Assembly: GCA_021031555.1 (NCBI GenBank)
Contig: GCA_021031555.1_4954.1
Length of the DNA stretch: 24,434 bases
Direction: 5' to 3' (one strand)
Source of the DNA: a phage
The notes under the pieces are model-generated. The model searched no databases. It was not told the origin of the DNA and worked only from the letters and a program-made list of their open reading frames with translations. Both the position numbers and the translations under genes were made by a program. The first letter of the stretch is position 1; each line of letters opens with the position of its first letter. Below, in pieces: positions 2,618 to 8,155 of this stretch.

Positions 2618-3637
2618 ATGAGTTACAAACAGAATTTTCGCGACGTTGGCGCACCAGATACATTCCTGTCTAACTTTTCTGTAAGTTACTGGCAGGATAC
2701 GTCACTGTTTGTCGGTACTCGTTATTTCCCGGTAGTTCCTGTTAACCAGGCTGCTGGTAAATTCCTGACTTACCCGAAAGGTTATTTCGGTCGTCCGGTT
2801 AACTCCAAACGTGCCGAAGATGGTGTTGCTAATACTATTGGTTACAAAACCAAAAACCAGGGTTACACCGTTGATGACGATGCGATCCGTATCTTTATTT
2901 CTGACAAAAAACGTGCAAACGTTCAGAACGGTCAGCAACTGGATATGGAAGCGTCAGCAGTAACCACAGATGCGTTGCTGATCAACAAAGAAGTGGATTT
3001 TGCTGAAAAATTCCTGACCGCTGGTAAATGGGGTCTTGATTTCCAGGGTAAAGATTCATCTCCGTCCACGGGCGAATTCCTGAAATGGTCTAATGCGAAT
3101 GCCGATCCGATTGGTGATATCCTGTCACGTCGTGTTGCGTTCTCTCTGGCATCCGGTGGTCGTCGCTGGAATAAAGCACTGATGACGCTGGACGTGTATG
3201 ACGCACTGACCCGTAACCCGGCTGTTATTGACCGCATTAACGGTGGTTCTACCACTCAGAATCCGGGGATCGTGACTAAACAGGCACTGGCTGCACTGCT
3301 GGAAGTTGACGAACTGGAAATCATGCAGTCTGTGGTCAACATGGCTGCTGATGGCGTTGAAGACAGTGACGGCAATCCGCTGTCAGACTTCCAGTTTGCT
3401 AAAACTGGTGTACTGATGCTCAACTATGTTGAACCGACTGTTGGTAACATGAAACCTGTTGCTGCTGCTGGCTTCGTGTGGAACGAATTCATCGGTCTGG
3501 GTGTTAACAACGGTCCGTCTATCCGCACCTATCCGGGTGTTGAAGGTCGCCGTGGTAATTTCGTTGAAGCGGAATTTGCCATTGATGTTCAGATGGTTGC
3601 ACCTGACCTGGGCGTTCTGTTCTACGACGCGGTTTAA
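2618..3637 (+). CDS. major capsid protein (HK97-fold type, no delta domain)
   Basis: 339-aa ORF of typical major capsid length with no N-terminal delta domain; follows scaffold and decoration-like genes; followed by a strong intrinsic terminator. Confidence 0.75.
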   Translation: MSYKQNFRDVGAPDTFLSNFSVSYWQDTSLFVGTRYFPVVPVNQAAGKFLTYPKGYFGRPVNSKRAEDGVANTIGYKTKNQGYTVDDDAIRIFISDKKRANVQNGQQLDMEASAVTTDALLINKEVDFAEKFLTAGKWGLDFQGKDSSPSTGEFLKWSNANADPIGDILSRRVAFSLASGGRRWNKALMTLDVYDALTRNPAVIDRINGGSTTQNPGIVTKQALAALLEVDELEIMQSVVNMAADGVEDSDGNPLSDFQFAKTGVLMLNYVEPTVGNMKPVAAAGFVWNEFIGLGVNNGPSIRTYPGVEGRRGNFVEAEFAIDVQMVAPDLGVLFYDAV

Positions 3638-3658
3638 TAACAACTGTGGTATCATTAA

Positions 3659-3684
3659 GGGGTGGCTTATGCTGCCCCTTTTTT
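3659..3684 (+). terminator. rho-independent terminator after the major capsid gene
   Basis: Stem GGGGTGGC / GCTGCCCC (8 bp, two G-U pairs), loop TTAT, followed by TTTTTT. Confidence 0.7.
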
Positions 3685-3699
3685 CATGAGGTTAAAATC

Positions 3700-4053
3700 A
3701 TGCGTAATTCATATGATCCGTCACTGAAATATGTTTTCACCCGTCCGATGCTGTGGAACGGTAAACAGATGTCCGCTGGCGATAAAGTATCAACATCAAA
3801 AGCTACCCCGGCTGTTTTAAATGCCCTTGTGCGTATGCGCCACATTGAACCAGCTACTGCGACCGTTGAAGAACCAGTGATTATAGCAAACGAAGAATCG
3901 GCATCAACCACTGCGGCTGAAATCCGACGTGACGCGCCAAAAACCTATAACGTTTATGTTATGGGTATGCCGATGAATTCAGAATCGTTTAGTAGTAAAA
4001 GTGCCGCTGCTGAATGGTGTGAATCTCAAGGCTTGACATATAACTATTCTTGA
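3700..4053 (+). CDS. hypothetical protein
   Basis: ATG 3700 with GAGG 9 nt upstream. The ORF-track start at 3646 would read through the terminator hairpin, so it is rejected. 117 aa. Confidence 0.6.
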   Translation: MRNSYDPSLKYVFTRPMLWNGKQMSAGDKVSTSKATPAVLNALVRMRHIEPATATVEEPVIIANEESASTTAAEIRRDAPKTYNVYVMGMPMNSESFSSKSAAAEWCESQGLTYNYS

Positions 4054-4061
4054 CCTATTGT
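4033..4061 (+). promoter_or_regulatory. candidate sigma70-type promoter
   Basis: -35 TTGACA (4033-4038), 17-bp spacer, -10 TATTGT (4056-4061). Lies at the 3' end of the preceding CDS and points into the non-coding region. Confidence 0.35.
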
Positions 4062-4256
4062 TAGTTGTAGATAGTTTTCGTGGCGACTTTGCGGACTTTT
4101 TAGAAACTGACCACAAAGATAAATGCAAACGAAGAACGTTTTCTGATGGCGGCGTAATAGCCTGTAAGTCAGCAAGGTCTTCCGATTCCTTGTAAATAAA
4201 TTCGGCGCACTGGCCCGGTGTGATTAATAATGGGCACACAACAGGTAAGAGCATTG

Positions 4257-4302
4257 CGCGCCTGACGAGTCCATGAGGGACGAAACGCATTAGCGTCGCG
4301 CG
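4257..4302 (+). ncRNA. type I hammerhead self-cleaving ribozyme motif
   Basis: Read directly from sequence. Stem I 4257-4261 (CGCGC) pairs with 4298-4302 (GCGCG). Core CUGACGA at 4262-4268. Stem II GUCC/GGAC (4269-4272 / 4278-4281), loop AUGAG. GAA at 4282-4284. Stem III ACGC/GCGU (4285-4288 / 4293-4296), loop AUUA. C17 at 4297, giving a GUC cleavage triplet with the predicted cut between 4297 and 4298. Confidence 0.7.
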
Positions 4303-4509
4303 GAGTATCCCCAGCCGGGGAATAACTGGATACCAGGGGAGTCAACCCTAAGCGCATTTACGAGTGTGTTTAGGGCGTGGGTCGGCAATGACTCCCTGTG
4401 CAGCCGACATCTGGCCCGGCAACATACAGTGCTCTTATCGTTGTGGTGAATTGCAGTTCTCAGAAACAACCAGAAGATAAGCGCCTGGCACTGCAACCAA
4501 ACACTCGCT

Positions 4510-4530
4510 GATAAGGAGGTGATCCTTATC
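4510..4530 (+). promoter_or_regulatory. hairpin carrying a 13-nt perfect anti-16S (extended Shine-Dalgarno) sequence
   Basis: TAAGGAGGTGATC (4512-4524) is the exact reverse complement of the 16S rRNA 3' end. It sits in an 8-bp inverted repeat GATAAGGA / TCCTTATC with loop GGTGA. A TTG at 4531 opens a 17-codon ORF. Confidence 0.4.
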
Positions 4531-4698
4531 TTGCTGGCGGGAAAGCCGCAAATCGTGGGTAAAGCATGTTGTGAAACATCCTGAACTGCGTGTCGTTTTA
4601 CATAACTGGTTATTCACGTGTCACGCATAGGGGTATGTTGGGACGTCAGGTGTGGATGACCAGTTATGTAAAACCCTCATTATCACCCAGAGCCATTT

Positions 4699-4724
4699 GC
4701 CGTCTGTTTAAGACGGCTTTTTTT
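4699..4724 (+). terminator. rho-independent terminator
   Basis: Stem GCCGTCT / AGACGGC (7 bp), loop GTTTA, followed by TTTTTTT. Confidence 0.75.
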
Positions 4725-4763
4725 CGTGCTAATATAACGAAAACATTTCTCACAGGTGATCAC

Positions 4764-5174
4764 ATGGCTATTACAGTTGAAGGTATTCGTTATTTGATCA
4801 GTGTCCCTGATGTTACTGATGAACAAATTCAGTGGTACATTGACAACGGTTATACAAATCCTCTCAGTATTTGCGTCGCTCTCTGTGATTATATGGCGTC
4901 TATTGCCAGCAACGATACTGATATTAAAGTAGGTCCGATCTCACTCAGTAGTAGTCAGTCAGCAGACGCCTGGAATAAACTTAAAAAAGATTTTATTTTA
5001 CGTATTAATACTGGCGCTGATTCAGGTGGCGGTTTGTTAGGTAGTTTTATGGGTGTTGGTGGAGCTACTTTAACTGGCGCTGGTATGCAACCTGCTATTC
5101 AACGTGGTCAGTTCGACAACCCACCTGTAACACTTGAAAGCGGTAGTCATGCACTTAATGAGGGTGAACGGTAA
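4764..5174 (+). CDS. putative head-tail joining / head completion protein
   Basis: ATG 4764 with AGGTGA upstream. The ORF-track start at 4590 would read through the terminator, so it is rejected. 136 aa. Function by position only. Confidence 0.6.
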   Translation: MAITVEGIRYLISVPDVTDEQIQWYIDNGYTNPLSICVALCDYMASIASNDTDIKVGPISLSSSQSADAWNKLKKDFILRINTGADSGGGLLGSFMGVGGATLTGAGMQPAIQRGQFDNPPVTLESGSHALNEGER

Positions 5175-5548
5175 TGGCAGACAAACGTCAAAGCGTCCTG
5201 AACGGTGTTACTCGTGCACTTGCTGAAGTAGGTGAGGATTTGACGGTAAAACGTGTGACAACAGTTCCCAACCCTTCTAATCCTACATTACCGGGTACAA
5301 CCGTTACTGAATCACACACCTGTCGTGGTTATATTTACCCATTAGAAAAGTGGGATCCGACTACTATGACCAGAATAACCACAACGATGGTAATTATGGA
5401 TAGTCAGAGTTTTGAACCACGATTCGTTCCCGATCGGGGGGATGTTGTGGTTGATGAACGTGGTAAAGAATATCGCCTTCTTGATTGTCAAAACCCACGA
5501 TTGTTAGGGGATGATATGGCATTTATTCACCCTGTTGGAGCGGCCTGA
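5174..5548 (+). CDS. putative head-tail joining protein
   Basis: 124-aa ORF; TAATG overlap with the upstream gene; position between capsid and tail genes. Confidence 0.6.
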   Translation: MADKRQSVLNGVTRALAEVGEDLTVKRVTTVPNPSNPTLPGTTVTESHTCRGYIYPLEKWDPTTMTRITTTMVIMDSQSFEPRFVPDRGDVVVDERGKEYRLLDCQNPRLLGDDMAFIHPVGAA

Positions 5549-5981: not shown

Positions 5982-6403
5982 TGACACTCTCAGATGTTTC
6001 AGGAATTGTTTATAATCGCGTTCTGGCGAATCTCCCCGTGGAAATTACGCCTGACAGATTTACAATCGCTTCTGGTCAACTCCCTGATGACACTACAGAA
6101 AAACCCGGTCTGATTCTGACACACAATCCCGGTCCGTGGACAATAACCACGCTGGGTGGGGAAGGTGTTTGTCGCCGTCGTTTAAGAACAGGAAACGTTT
6201 TTTTACAGGTACGCACACCTGCTCAGTATGGTATGGACACTTTGAGTATTGATATTGCGGATCGGCTTGCAAAATTATTTGAAGGTGTCTGGCAGGACCG
6301 CCCGTTAATTTACACGAGTGTTGATATTCGTCATCAGGGTCGTGATAACGCGTGGTTTTTAACGAACGTCGTACTTAGTTACGAATACGAAGAAATATAT
6401 TAA
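5978..6403 (+). CDS. putative tail terminator / head-tail adaptor protein
   Basis: 141-aa ORF; start (GTG 5978 or ATG 5981) overlaps the upstream stop. Function by position only. Confidence 0.55.
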   Translation: MMTLSDVSGIVYNRVLANLPVEITPDRFTIASGQLPDDTTEKPGLILTHNPGPWTITTLGGEGVCRRRLRTGNVFLQVRTPAQYGMDTLSIDIADRLAKLFEGVWQDRPLIYTSVDIRHQGRDNAWFLTNVVLSYEYEEIY

Positions 6404-7897: not shown

Positions 7898-7917
7898 CAT
7901 GGTGGATGGTAGTGATT

Positions 7918-7944
7918 GCCCCGGAACTGCCCGGGGCTTTTTTT
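7918..7944 (+). terminator. rho-independent terminator after the major tail gene
   Basis: Stem GCCCCGG / CCGGGGC (7 bp), loop AACTGC, followed by TTTTTTT. Confidence 0.75.
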
Positions 7945-8155
7945 ACACGTATTGAATCTGTTTTGGTGAAAAAGGTTTGTCGTATTTTCCATTACCTTTT
8001 AACCATTCAATCAATTGTTCACGTAAACTTTTACGGAATTCAGATCGTAAATTACTGTTGAGAAGTTTAAAGAACACAGGGAACATGTCCGGGTGGTATG
8101 CACGGAAAAGTTTTTCAACTTGTTCACGATTAACGTTATATTCCCGAACTATCAA
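7943..8155 (-). CDS. hypothetical small protein (questionable)
   Basis: 70-aa ORF on the - strand; TTG start with no clear RBS; downstream of the 125-aa moron gene. Confidence 0.3.
   Translation of the reverse strand: MIVREYNVNREQVEKLFRAYHPDMFPVFFKLLNSNLRSEFRKSLREQLIEWLKGNGKYDKPFSPKQIQYV

What the first reader, a model, noticed from the sequence alone, without database searches (positions are those of the whole stretch)
4257..4302. Complete type I hammerhead ribozyme core in the capsid-to-neck intergenic region
Every invariant hammerhead nucleotide is present in the right order and spacing (C3 U4 G5 A6 N7 G8 A9 as CUGACGA at 4262-4268; G12 A13 A14 at 4282-4284; A15.1-U16.1 closing stem III; C17 at 4297), with three Watson-Crick helices. 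Stem I is the open helix (CGCGC 4257-4261 with GCGCG 4298-4302), which defines type I topology. Stems II and III are closed 4-bp hairpins. A chance match to about 12 fixed positions plus three complementary helices is very unlikely in 24 kb. Predicted cleavage between 4297 and 4298 would cut the late transcript between the capsid and head-completion genes and release a structured downstream RNA with a 5'-OH end. The helices are short, so activity may need higher Mg2+ or unseen tertiary contacts.
Basis: seen in the sequence. Interest (0 to 1): 0.85.

Follow-up and report, generated by a model that had tools for sequence, protein, structure and literature searches.

The report
Hammerhead ribozyme leading a phage RNA
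A genuine, evolutionarily conserved self-cutting hammerhead ribozyme lies in this phage's capsid-to-neck gap, fused to an undescribed, tightly folded ~120-base RNA that moves between unrelated phages and phage tRNA gene clusters, which gives a bacterial hammerhead a specific job that can be tested.

Summary
Positions 4257-4302 form a complete type I hammerhead. A hammerhead descriptor finds it once in the window and never in 1000 shuffles. Rfam's type I model scores it below its curated cut-off (24.7 vs 34 bits), but comparison with relatives settles the matter. In 20 distinct relatives the core is invariant except N7 (C/A/U) and N17 (C/A), and stems II and III change sequence and length with full compensation.

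The hammerhead is not a free-standing mRNA cutter. Its stem I is helix P1 of a conserved ~120-nt double-pseudoknotted RNA (4298-4423) that matches no Rfam family. This composite is 100% identical in E. coli prophages. It also occurs in a T7-like phage, in Pectobacterium phages and inside tRNA arrays of large phages. A circularly permuted form also exists.

In this window the composite sits in the apical loop of a 19-bp hairpin. The hairpin belongs to a non-coding island (about 4062-4725) that begins with a tmRNA-tag-like module.

Best reading: cleavage at 4297/4298 creates the 5'-OH end of the structured RNA. The function of that RNA is unknown, and cleavage activity has not been tested.

The parts
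4257..4261 (+). Hammerhead stem I, 5' strand (CGCGC). This is also helix P1 of the larger RNA.
   Evidence: Pairs with 4298-4302. 100% of cells paired in 18 W-type homologues.
4262..4268 (+). Catalytic core C3-A9 (CUGACGA, N7=C)
   Evidence: Invariant in 22 aligned homologues except N7.
4269..4281 (+). Stem II hairpin (GUCC / AUGAG / GGAC)
   Evidence: Compensatory changes seen: GUCUU/AAGAC, GUUC/GAAC, GGCU/AGCC, GAG/CUC and others.
4282..4284 (+). Core G12 A13 A14
   Evidence: Present in all 20 parsed hammerheads, because the parser requires it. MAFFT aligns it in 21 of 22 rows of A2 and misaligns L054. It is invariant in the 14-row alignment A4.
4285..4296 (+). Stem III hairpin (A15.1 CGC / AUUA / GCG U16.1)
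   Evidence: A15.1-U16.1 is invariant. Inner pairs covary: ACAC/GUGU, AUAC/GUGU, ACC/GGU, ACCGAC/GUCGGU and others.
4297..4298 (+). C17 and the predicted scissile bond, between 4297 and 4298
   Evidence: Position follows from the hammerhead consensus. N17 is C (14) or A (6), never G, in homologues. Cleavage itself was not tested.
4298..4302 (+). Stem I 3' strand (GCGCG), which is the 5' end of the released RNA
   Evidence: GCGCGGAG is conserved in all family members.
4303..4423 (+). Conserved double-pseudoknotted RNA body. Helices: Pa 4305-4310/4328-4333; Pb 4314-4319/4415-4420 (pseudoknot); Pc 4336-4344/4389-4397; Pd hairpin 4346-4357/4364-4375; Pe 4381-4386/4403-4408 (pseudoknot).
   Evidence: Covariation: 97.8% of cells paired vs 86.9% in shuffles (0/500). 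24 of 52 pairs have changes on both sides. Slid controls give 33-46%. An independent count over 29 distinct helix sets, including permuted members, agrees. No Rfam family matches.
4237..4256 (+). Outer hairpin, 5' strand (CACAAC-A-GGUAAGAGCAUUG)
   Evidence: Pairs with 4427-4445, 19 bp. The same stem encloses other inserts in Sasha, BDX09P1, Klebsiella phage VLCpiS10a, phage C1 and E. coli prophage L001. L069 and FelixO1 have the same architecture with a different sequence.
4427..4445 (+). Outer hairpin, 3' strand (CAGUGCUCUUAUCGUUGUG)
4063..4236 (+). Upstream tmRNA-tag-like module (reads GCA AAC GAA GAA CGU UUU CUG AUG GCG GCG UAA UAG = ANEERFLMAA**). It belongs to the same non-coding island but not to the hammerhead.
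   Evidence: Rfam sub-threshold matches on the tag region: tmRNA_permuted 27.8 bits, beta_tmRNA 23.5 bits. Homologous in 730 phage records. Tag variants are listed.
4033..4061 (+). Sigma-70-like promoter candidate (TTGACA-17-TATTGT) in front of the non-coding island
   Evidence: Consensus scan only. The homologous unit in phage C1 is on the strand opposite to its neighbouring genes and has its own TTGACA..TAGATT.
4699..4724 (+). Intrinsic terminator closing the non-coding island (GCCGUCUGUUUAAGACGGC + U7)
   Evidence: The equivalent site is annotated as a terminator in phage Sasha.

Best explanation
Positions 4257-4302 are a functional type I hammerhead ribozyme. It is the 5' module of a portable two-part RNA cassette. 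Its stem I is formed with the first five bases (GCGCG) of a conserved ~120-nt RNA that folds into two interlocked pseudoknots (4298-4423). After transcription the hammerhead cuts between C4297 and G4298. That leaves a 2',3'-cyclic phosphate on the upstream fragment and defines a 5'-hydroxyl end for the structured RNA, which RNase P cannot process. Where the cassette sits in phage tRNA arrays, RNase P cleavage at the next tRNA would make the 3' end. In this window the cassette sits in the apical loop of a 19-bp hairpin inside a non-coding island (about 4062-4725). The hairpin's conserved arms probably serve as homology arms for cassette exchange between phages, and possibly as a double-strand RNase site. 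Shown here: the motif, its non-randomness, conservation of the core, covariation of all helices, the fixed junction between the hammerhead and GCGCGGAG, and the genomic contexts. Inferred: actual cleavage, the nature of the ends, how the 3' end forms here, and that the released RNA is the functional product. What that RNA does is unknown. My guess is a stable trans-acting RNA that engages the host tRNA or translation machinery or a defence system aimed at it. This guess rests only on its company (tRNA arrays, a tmRNA-like module).
For: Motif and chance. Core conservation: in 20 distinct hammerheads CUGANGA varies only at N7 (U11/C7/A2), and N17 is C14/A6 and never G. G12-A14 is required by the parser; independent MAFFT alignments show it invariant (A4) or aligned in 21 of 22 rows (A2). 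Stem covariation: stem II outer pairs are 98% paired vs 67% when partners are shuffled, and stem III 100% vs 82%. On the 18-sequence alignment 24/52 pairs carry double changes, with 0/500 shuffles as good. Fixed architecture: the cleavage site directly precedes GCGCGGAG in every W-type member (16 of 16 distinct) and in 10 of 14 distinct permuted members. RNA body: Pa, Pb, Pc and Pe are 94-100% paired vs 69-83% when shuffled. Fold z=-4.8 for 4236-4452. tRNA-array contexts: tRNA-Thr|cassette|tRNA-Gly in L024/L066/L072/L081, tRNA-Gly|cassette|tRNA-Ser in L050, tRNA-Met|cassette|tRNA-Pro in L080, and directly before tRNA-Met or tRNA-Ser in L003, L013 and L075. Portability: 168/168 identical in E. 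coli prophages and present in 15 of 5426 genomes. It lies between Q/pR'-tR' and the holin gene in a lambdoid prophage and after the capsid gene in a T7-like phage. It is absent from the closest Sashavirus relatives, which carry other inserts in the same hairpin. Generality of the module: near-identical type I hammerheads sit immediately 5' of start codons, or of a second structured RNA class, in other viral contigs. This matches the prophage hammerhead arrays described in PMC3088659. No conserved neighbouring protein gene exists.
Against: There are no experimental data, so cleavage is inferred. Rfam RF00163 scores it below gathering (24.7 vs 34 bits). The 46-mer's folding energy is not unusual (z=-0.8). 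No stem I/stem II tertiary contact could be identified, and the helices are short. In the permuted form the hammerhead is internal to the RNA, so simple 5'-end trimming does not explain why it is retained there with an intact core. Three permuted members (L048, L051, L057) lack a hammerhead altogether and L052 has a degenerate core, so the RNA body can exist uncut. How the 3' end forms in this window is unknown.
Confidence: 0.7

Rival explanations
1. The hammerhead is an obligatory, possibly regulated, domain of the larger RNA rather than an end-trimming device. Self-scission at the top of helix P1 nicks the RNA and is needed for, or controlled by, the folded pseudoknot body. That would make it a natural self-nicking RNA or aptazyme.
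For: Stem I is helix P1 of the body, and hammerhead-less members close P1 with a small loop. In at least 8 distinct permuted members the hammerhead is internal, yet it keeps an intact core with covarying stems. The invariant GA (4303-4304) and hairpin Pa lie 5 bp from the core, where type I hammerheads carry the stem I bulge that contacts loop II (inference from the Schistosoma hammerhead architecture). Loop II carries a recurrent UAACGC in permuted members.
Against: Very similar hammerheads precede unrelated sequences such as start codons and a different structured RNA, which argues for a generic processing module. Three permuted members work without any hammerhead. No ligand, alternative pairing or switch could be identified.
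Confidence: 0.15
2. The ribozyme exists mainly to cut the late polycistronic mRNA between the capsid and head-completion genes, so as to set different stabilities or translation for the two halves. The downstream structure would be incidental.
For: It lies between the major head gene (2618-3637) and the neck genes (5174 onward) on the coding strand. Hammerheads that flank genes in prophages have been proposed to process operon transcripts (PMC3088659; PMC6765202). Such arrays were seen here in the L084 group.
Against: The same cassette occurs in tRNA arrays, in a lambdoid late leader, in a T7-like phage and as stand-alone units. It is always joined to the same RNA body, not to particular genes. 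The closest Sashaviruses lack it. A terminator-like site follows the capsid gene, and a promoter-like site and a strong terminator bracket the non-coding island.
Confidence: 0.1
3. It is a chance or decayed hammerhead-like sequence with no activity.
For: The Rfam score is below the curated threshold. The helices are short, the energy z-score is not significant, and no tertiary contact was identified.
Against: There were 0 hits in 1000 shuffles. The core is invariant and the stems covary across 20 distinct homologues spanning both architectures. Variation is confined to N7, N17, the loops and compensated stem positions, which is the signature of purifying selection on an active hammerhead.
Confidence: 0.04
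4. The conservation reflects a small protein encoded on the minus strand (ORF 4169-4357, 62 aa; or 3979-4290, 103 aa).
For: These ORFs exist, and the 62-aa ORF recurs in near-identical copies.
Against: Variable columns are spread evenly over the codon positions (17/17/18). The start codon is lost, and in-frame stops or frame shifts occur in L013, L038, L040 and the L023 group. The sequence is circularly permuted in other members. Substitutions are base-pair compensatory.
Confidence: 0.01

Closest known systems
Type I hammerhead ribozymes (Rfam RF00163), especially the bacterial and prophage hammerheads of Perreault et al. 2011 (PMC3088659)
   Same: The catalytic core, the three-helix junction, the open stem I and the cleavage 3' of H17 are identical. 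The setting is a phage or prophage intergenic region. [quoted passage not shown]
   Different: It scores below the Rfam gathering threshold. Stem I is shared with, and continues into, a conserved double-pseudoknotted RNA. It occurs in tRNA arrays and in a circularly permuted arrangement where it is internal to the RNA. No pseudoknot or loop-loop tertiary contact of the described kinds could be identified.
Theta ribozymes: minimal HDV-like ribozymes adjacent to phage tRNAs (Kienbeck et al. 2024, PMC10879173)
   Same: Both are small self-cleaving ribozymes in Caudoviricetes placed so that the cleavage site abuts a structured non-coding RNA within tRNA-rich regions. Both are proposed to replace protein RNases in end maturation.
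   Different: The ribozyme class differs (hammerhead vs HDV-like). The end matured differs (5' end of the downstream RNA vs tRNA 3' trailer). The partner here is not a tRNA but an undescribed pseudoknotted RNA. That paper's main text contains no occurrence of the word 'hammerhead' (0 hits in the term count).
Multiple hammerheads flanking single genes in prophages (PMC3088659)
   Same: The same kind of type I hammerhead, with near-identical stem II and core sequence, was found here 5' of start codons. It occurs in arrays of 2-3 in the L084 group of viral contigs.
   Different: In the window the hammerhead precedes a non-coding structured RNA, not an open reading frame, and is single.
Natural ribozyme-aptamer composites (glmS ribozyme; c-di-GMP-II riboswitch with group I ribozyme). 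From my own knowledge.
   Same: A catalytic RNA is physically joined to a conserved ligand-pocket-like fold, with a shared helix between the two.
   Different: There is no evidence here for a ligand or for control of cleavage. This is only the model for the rival or novel reading.

Membership tests
Hammerhead ribozyme, type I | Conserved core C3 U4 G5 A6 N7 G8 A9 / G12 A13 A14 / A15.1-U16.1 / H17, in that order | tested here: met
   The core is conserved in homologues, with variation only at N7 and N17.
Hammerhead ribozyme, type I | Three Watson-Crick helices radiating from the core, supported by covariation | tested here: met
   The MFE fold shows them. Stems II and III have compensatory changes and length variation. 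Stem I varies little: only C-G to U-G changes among W-type members.
Hammerhead ribozyme, type I | Topology: stem I open, stems II and III closed by loops | tested here: met
   The order of strands is the same in all homologues.
Hammerhead ribozyme, type I | Score at or above the curated gathering threshold of Rfam RF00163 | tested here: not met
   24.7 bits vs 34 and no hit at gathering. The alignment inserts a gap in stem I, so the five G-C pairs are not credited. Rfam at gathering reports no hammerhead in the 18 related loci scanned. This is a curated threshold, not a biochemical definition.
Hammerhead ribozyme, type I | Tertiary contact between stems I and II that allows fast cleavage at physiological Mg2+ | tested here: inconclusive
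   No conserved loop II partner was found by eye in alignments A1 and A2. The invariant GA 4303-4304 and hairpin Pa sit where a stem I bulge would be (inference).
Hammerhead ribozyme, type I | Mg2+-dependent self-cleavage giving 2',3'-cyclic phosphate and 5'-OH ends | not testable with these tools
   Needs in vitro transcription and end mapping.
Any described RNA family (Rfam 15), for the downstream RNA 4298-4423 | Covariance-model match | tested here: not met
   No match with E<=10 other than a chance-level tmRNA fragment hit (E=1.9) in the window. There was none at gathering in either the window-type or the permuted loci. The 'drum' motif, which I recalled as ribozyme-associated, is not so according to its paper.
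tmRNA (for the upstream module 4063-4236 only) | Tag reading frame with a resume codon, a C-terminal hydrophobic-Ala-Ala, and stop codon(s) in a hairpin loop | tested here: met
   ANEERFLMAA** in the window. ANDDVVLMAA, ANEEMYLAVA, ANDNVFLAVA and ANDNTFLAVA in homologues. Rfam aligns the tag region.
tmRNA (for the upstream module 4063-4236 only) | tRNA-like domain: acceptor stem with G3:U70, T arm, 3' CCA | tested here: not met
   ARAGORN finds no tmRNA or tRNA in the window. Rfam tmRNA scores are far below gathering. A candidate tRNA-like element exists downstream in FelixO1 only.

The most novel reading that the evidence does not exclude
The hammerhead and the double-pseudoknotted body together form a new class of phage RNA in which self-scission at helix P1 is part of the function. 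Under this reading, cleavage is retained even when the ribozyme is internal (permuted form) and is governed by the folded body or by a bound ligand or protein. The RNA would act on the tRNA, tmRNA or translation machinery, or on host defences that target it. This would be a natural hammerhead-based self-nicking RNA or aptazyme travelling as a cassette between phages.
Probability: 0.2. Interest if true: 0.9.

Novelty: new variant of a known kind. Interest (0 to 1): 0.72.

Why it matters
[quoted passage not shown] In this case the ribozyme has a fixed, covarying partner and a fixed junction. It also has informative contexts: tRNA arrays, a lambdoid late leader, and a tmRNA-like RNA gene. It occurs in cultivable E. 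coli prophages and coliphages, so the hypothesis of ribozyme-made 5' ends for a stable phage RNA can be tested with standard genetics. The partner RNA is a compact, highly conserved double pseudoknot with two natural circular permutations and no Rfam family. That is the profile of an RNA with a demanding biochemical function. The case also shows that curated Rfam thresholds miss a whole group of phage type I hammerheads.

Tried and rejected
(1) Rfam at gathering on the window and on 18 related loci found nothing for the hammerhead or its partner. Relaxed scans gave only the sub-threshold hammerhead and tmRNA-tag hits. (2) I recalled the 'drum' RNA motif as ribozyme-associated. The paper says otherwise, so I dropped it. 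(3) My first 3'-half search pattern was mis-specified and found nothing; I corrected it. (4) The scan of 100,044 species-representative genomes returned only two chance matches that lack the rest of the RNA, so the family is rare outside phages and prophages. (5) A search for a conserved neighbouring protein found only lambdoid backbone genes and a spurious antisense ORF. (6) Minus-strand coding was rejected. (7) I considered training an independent covariance model on divergent homologues. I abandoned it because MAFFT misplaces gaps in the variable stem II, and a homologue-trained model would test only homology. (8) Literature searches for a prior description of this hammerhead+RNA composite found none in the held library. 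This is not proof of absence. (9) I looked for a tRNA-like or tmRNA-like reading of the partner RNA (acceptor pairing of GCGCGGA, a 3' CCA) and found no support.

Full report
**Observation**

The sequence at 4257-4302 reads CGCGC CUGACGA GUCC-AUGAG-GGAC GAA ACGC-AUUA-GCGU C GCGCG.

- The 46-mer's minimum-free-energy structure is exactly the three-way junction.
- The same junction is recovered when 217 nt or 394 nt of context are folded.
- A descriptor requiring stem I >=4 bp, CUGANGA, a stem II hairpin >=3 bp, GAA, an A..U-closed stem III >=3 bp and H17 finds this one site in the 24.4-kb window. It finds none in 1000 dinucleotide-preserving shuffles on both strands.

Two results point the other way.

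- Rfam's Hammerhead_1 model aligns the whole core perfectly but scores 24.7 bits against a gathering score of 34. The E-value is 9.6e-4 in a 471-nt scan, and nothing is reported at gathering.
- The folding energy of the 46-mer alone is unremarkable (z=-0.8).

The Rfam shortfall comes largely from stem I, where the model inserts a gap and marks three pairs as non-standard. At gathering, Rfam also reports no hammerhead in the 18 related loci scanned. The threshold is therefore uninformative for this group.

**Homologues**

BLAST shows that the intergenic region is a mosaic.

- Window 4427-4600 is Sashavirus backbone.
- Window ~4069-4256 is a module present in about 730 phage records.
- Window 4237-4452, which holds the hammerhead and what follows it, is found in few places. 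These are 15 of 5426 complete E. coli genomes (168/168 identical in strains A35 and QML220601), the T7-like Enterobacter phage SDFMU_EhYP (95%), and three Pectobacterium/Dickeya phages (80%).

Pattern scans of viral and metagenomic contigs added more divergent members. Across 20 distinct hammerhead sequences:

- the core varies only at N7 (U 11, C 7, A 2) and N17 (C 14, A 6, never G);
- G12-A14 and A15.1-U16.1 are constant where aligned;
- stems II and III differ in sequence and length with complete compensation. Examples for stem II are GUCC/GGAC, GUCUU/AAGAC, GGCU/AGCC, GAG/CUC and GAUU/AAUC. Examples for stem III are ACGC/GCGU, AUAC/GUGU, ACC/GGU, ACCGAC/GUCGGU and a 9-bp version.

The outer three pairs of stem II are 98% paired against 67% when partners are shuffled. 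For stem III the figures are 100% against 82%. This is the pattern expected of an active hammerhead under purifying selection.

**What the hammerhead is attached to**

In every member the cleavage site is followed by GCGCGGAG and a conserved RNA of about 120 nt (window 4298-4423). Its helices are:

- Pa 4305-4310/4328-4333;
- Pb 4314-4319/4415-4420, a pseudoknot from the Pa loop to the 3' tail;
- Pc 4336-4344/4389-4397;
- Pd, a hairpin at 4346-4357/4364-4375;
- Pe 4381-4386/4403-4408, a second pseudoknot.

On an 18-sequence alignment the whole structure (52 pairs, hammerhead included) is 97.8% paired against 86.9% in column shuffles (0/500). Twenty-four pairs have changes on both sides, and slid controls give 33-46%. 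An independent count over 29 distinct helix sets gives the same answer. No Rfam family matches this RNA in either arrangement. The antisense ORFs over it are not conserved: there is no codon periodicity, start codons are lost, and stops and frame shifts occur.

**A permuted form**

The scan with a 3'-half pattern revealed members in which the DNA order is 3' half, short linker, hammerhead, 5' half. In these, helix Pd is open and serves as the terminal closing stem (L047, L049, L053, L054, L058, L064/78, L068, L070, L080, L082). These are not tandem copies.

- In this form the hammerhead is internal, so cleavage would leave a two-piece RNA held together by Pb, Pc, Pd and Pe.
- Three permuted members have no hammerhead and close P1 with a small loop or linker (L048, L051, L057). 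One has a degenerate core (L052).
- Hammerhead stem I is therefore helix P1 of the larger RNA.

Retention of intact, covarying hammerheads in the permuted form is not explained by simple end trimming. It is the main unexplained point.

**Contexts**

The cassette is repeatedly embedded in phage tRNA arrays in the same orientation:

- between tRNA-Thr and tRNA-Gly in L024, L066, L072 and L081;
- between tRNA-Gly and tRNA-Ser in L050;
- between tRNA-Met and tRNA-Pro in L080;
- directly upstream of tRNA-Met (L003) or tRNA-Ser (L075), and about 230 nt upstream of tRNA-Met in L013.

In these places RNase P cleavage of the following tRNA would create the RNA's 3' end, and the hammerhead supplies the 5' end that RNase P cannot make (inference).

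Elsewhere it lies between the Q antiterminator/pR'-tR' region and the holin gene of a lambdoid prophage, and after the capsid gene of a T7-like phage. No protein gene is consistently adjacent.

Seen from the ribozyme side, near-identical type I hammerheads occur in other viral contigs in three settings:

- immediately 5' of Shine-Dalgarno sites and start codons;
- in arrays of two or three flanking small genes, as described for prophages in PMC3088659;
- 5' of a second, different pseudoknotted RNA (L092, L105, L107, L109).

The hammerhead thus behaves as a generic, portable 5'-processing module.

**The window itself**

- PHROG matches place the head scaffolding protein at 2204-2614 and the major head protein at 2618-3637.
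- An unknown protein follows at 3646-4053, and another unknown protein starts at about 4764.
- Head closure Hc1 is at 5174-5548, followed by Neck1 and the tail terminator.

'Capsid-to-neck intergenic region' is therefore right, and the gap is about 700 nt.

- A terminator-like site follows the capsid gene (3657-3680).
- A promoter-like site (4033-4061) precedes the non-coding island.
- A strong intrinsic terminator (4699-4717 plus a U-run) ends it.
- In phage C1 the homologous island is on the strand opposite to its neighbouring genes and has its own promoter-like site and terminator, so it is an independent RNA gene there.

Within the island, the hammerhead+RNA cassette occupies the apical loop of a 19-bp hairpin (4237-4256 with 4427-4445).

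- The same hairpin carries other, unrelated inserts in Sasha, BDX09P1, Klebsiella phage VLCpiS10a, phage C1 and elsewhere in the E. coli prophage.
- L069 and FelixO1 keep the architecture with different stem sequences.

The closest relatives of this phage lack the hammerhead. The cassette is therefore a recent acquisition, most simply by homologous recombination through the conserved stem arms (inference).

**Mechanism and rivals**

- Best reading (0.7): the hammerhead self-cleaves at 4297/4298 and defines the 5'-OH end of a stable structured RNA. The function of that RNA is unknown. Its company suggests a link with tRNA or translation, or with defences aimed at them.
- Rival 1 (0.15): the ribozyme is an obligatory or regulated domain of the RNA. 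This is supported by the permuted, internal hammerheads and the shared P1. It is weakened by the promiscuity of the hammerhead module and by hammerhead-less members.
- Rival 2 (0.1): it mainly processes the late mRNA.
- Rival 3 (0.04): it is a chance or dead motif.
- Rival 4 (0.01): the conservation reflects antisense coding.

**Comparison with known systems and novelty**

As a ribozyme this is a member of a known class. Core, helices and topology were tested and met. The Rfam threshold was not met, the tertiary contact is inconclusive, and catalysis is untestable here.

The closest functional analogue is the theta (HDV-like) ribozymes that abut phage tRNAs (PMC10879173). The closest structural relatives are the prophage hammerheads of PMC3088659.

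What appears new is the fixed fusion to an undescribed double-pseudoknotted RNA, its two circular permutations, its residence in tRNA arrays and in a tmRNA-like RNA gene, and its presence in E. coli prophages. I found no description of this composite in the held literature. That is not proof that none exists.

I rate it a new variant of a known kind, with interest 0.72.

Noticed in passing
window 4063-4236 (also L001 ~5990-6150, L083 ~1500-1660, L006 ~1500-1660, L111 ~1165-1320, L112 ~985-1150): The module just upstream of the hammerhead hairpin resembles the 5' part and mRNA-like domain of a tmRNA. It reads ...AUAAAU GCA AAC GAA GAA CGU UUU CUG AUG GCG GCG UAA UAG = ANEERFLMAA**. Homologues encode ANDDVVLMAA, ANEEMYLAVA, ANDNVFLAVA and ANDNTFLAVA. 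Rfam aligns the tag region below threshold (tmRNA_permuted 27.8 bits, beta_tmRNA 23.5 bits). ARAGORN calls no tmRNA. The module is in 730 phage records (FelixO1, Kuttervirus, G7C-like, Deseoctovirus, Sashavirus and others) and is almost never annotated. This may be an overlooked phage tmRNA-like RNA.
   Followed up: partly
E. coli plasmids, hits H104-H127: The first ~50-80 nt of the tmRNA-like module also match about 550 E. coli plasmids of ~70-100 kb at 75-85% identity. Phage D6 is hit in the phage collection, so these may be phage-plasmids. They are unannotated.
   Followed up: no
L111 (Salmonella phage FelixO1) 1394-1475: About 70 nt downstream of the tmRNA-tag-like module and its hairpin lies an unannotated tRNA-like element. 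It has a 7-bp acceptor stem CGGGGCG/CGCCUCG with G3:U70, an anticodon-like loop CU-UCU-AA, a T arm GCGGG-UUCGAGU-CCUGC, A73 and CCA, and no D arm. ARAGORN does not call it. The MFE fold reproduces the arms, but the energy z-score is nil (0.04).
   Followed up: partly
window 4237-4256 / 4427-4445; L005 ~1143-1222; L004 ~652-738; L001 5908-5985; L006 ~1664-1782; L083 ~1668-1745; L111 ~1325-1390: A conserved long hairpin (CACAACAGGUAAGAGCAUU...CAGUGCUCUUAUCGUUGUG) acts as a cassette holder. Its apical part differs completely between phages, with inserts of 28-190 nt, some of them recurrent (for example CCCUUAUGGGGCUUGGCUUAAAUGCA in L001 and FelixO1). From memory, phage lambda carries the same hairpin just after tR'. 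It could be an RNase III site and/or a set of recombination arms.
   Followed up: partly
L047, L049, L053, L054, L058, L070, L078, L080, L082 (with hammerhead); L048, L051, L057 (without); L052 (degenerate core): These carry the circularly permuted form of the hammerhead-associated RNA, with Pd open as the closing stem and the ribozyme internal. Some members replace the ribozyme by a short hairpin or linker. Why the internal ribozyme is kept is unexplained.
   Followed up: partly
L092 ~7901-8090 (+), L105, L107/L108, L109: A second, different structured RNA follows a near-identical type I hammerhead (GCGUAGGCC.AUUAG..GUGAAUGGGACAAGGCC...GGAUACGAAGCC...). It has a similar layout: a hairpin loop paired to the 3' tail, a central long hairpin and a further pseudoknot. 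There is no Rfam match and no adjacent tRNA.
   Followed up: partly
L084-L090, L096-L102 (viral contigs from sample 3300045988): Arrays of two or three type I hammerheads about 400 nt apart, each ending a few bases before a ribosome-binding site and start codon of a small gene. This is the prophage 'operon-dicing' arrangement described in 2011.
   Followed up: no
L003 (Pectobacterium phage Pappous) 3992-3999 and 4169-4176: The hammerhead+RNA cassette is flanked by the direct repeat ACAAATTA, immediately before tRNA-Met. This could be a target-site-like duplication or a recombination scar.
   Followed up: no
L050 5089-5209 (-); L013 5537-5601 (+): Rfam gathering-level hits to Betaproteobacteria-1 RNA (102.7 bits) and int-alpA RNA (44.9 bits) occur in two viral contigs that also carry the cassette. 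They are not adjacent to it.
   Followed up: no
window 4446-4698: The 3' part of the non-coding island shares AUAGGGGUAUG..GGGA...UGGAUG with phage C1 and is conserved among Sashaviruses. It has no Rfam match and its role is unknown.
   Followed up: no
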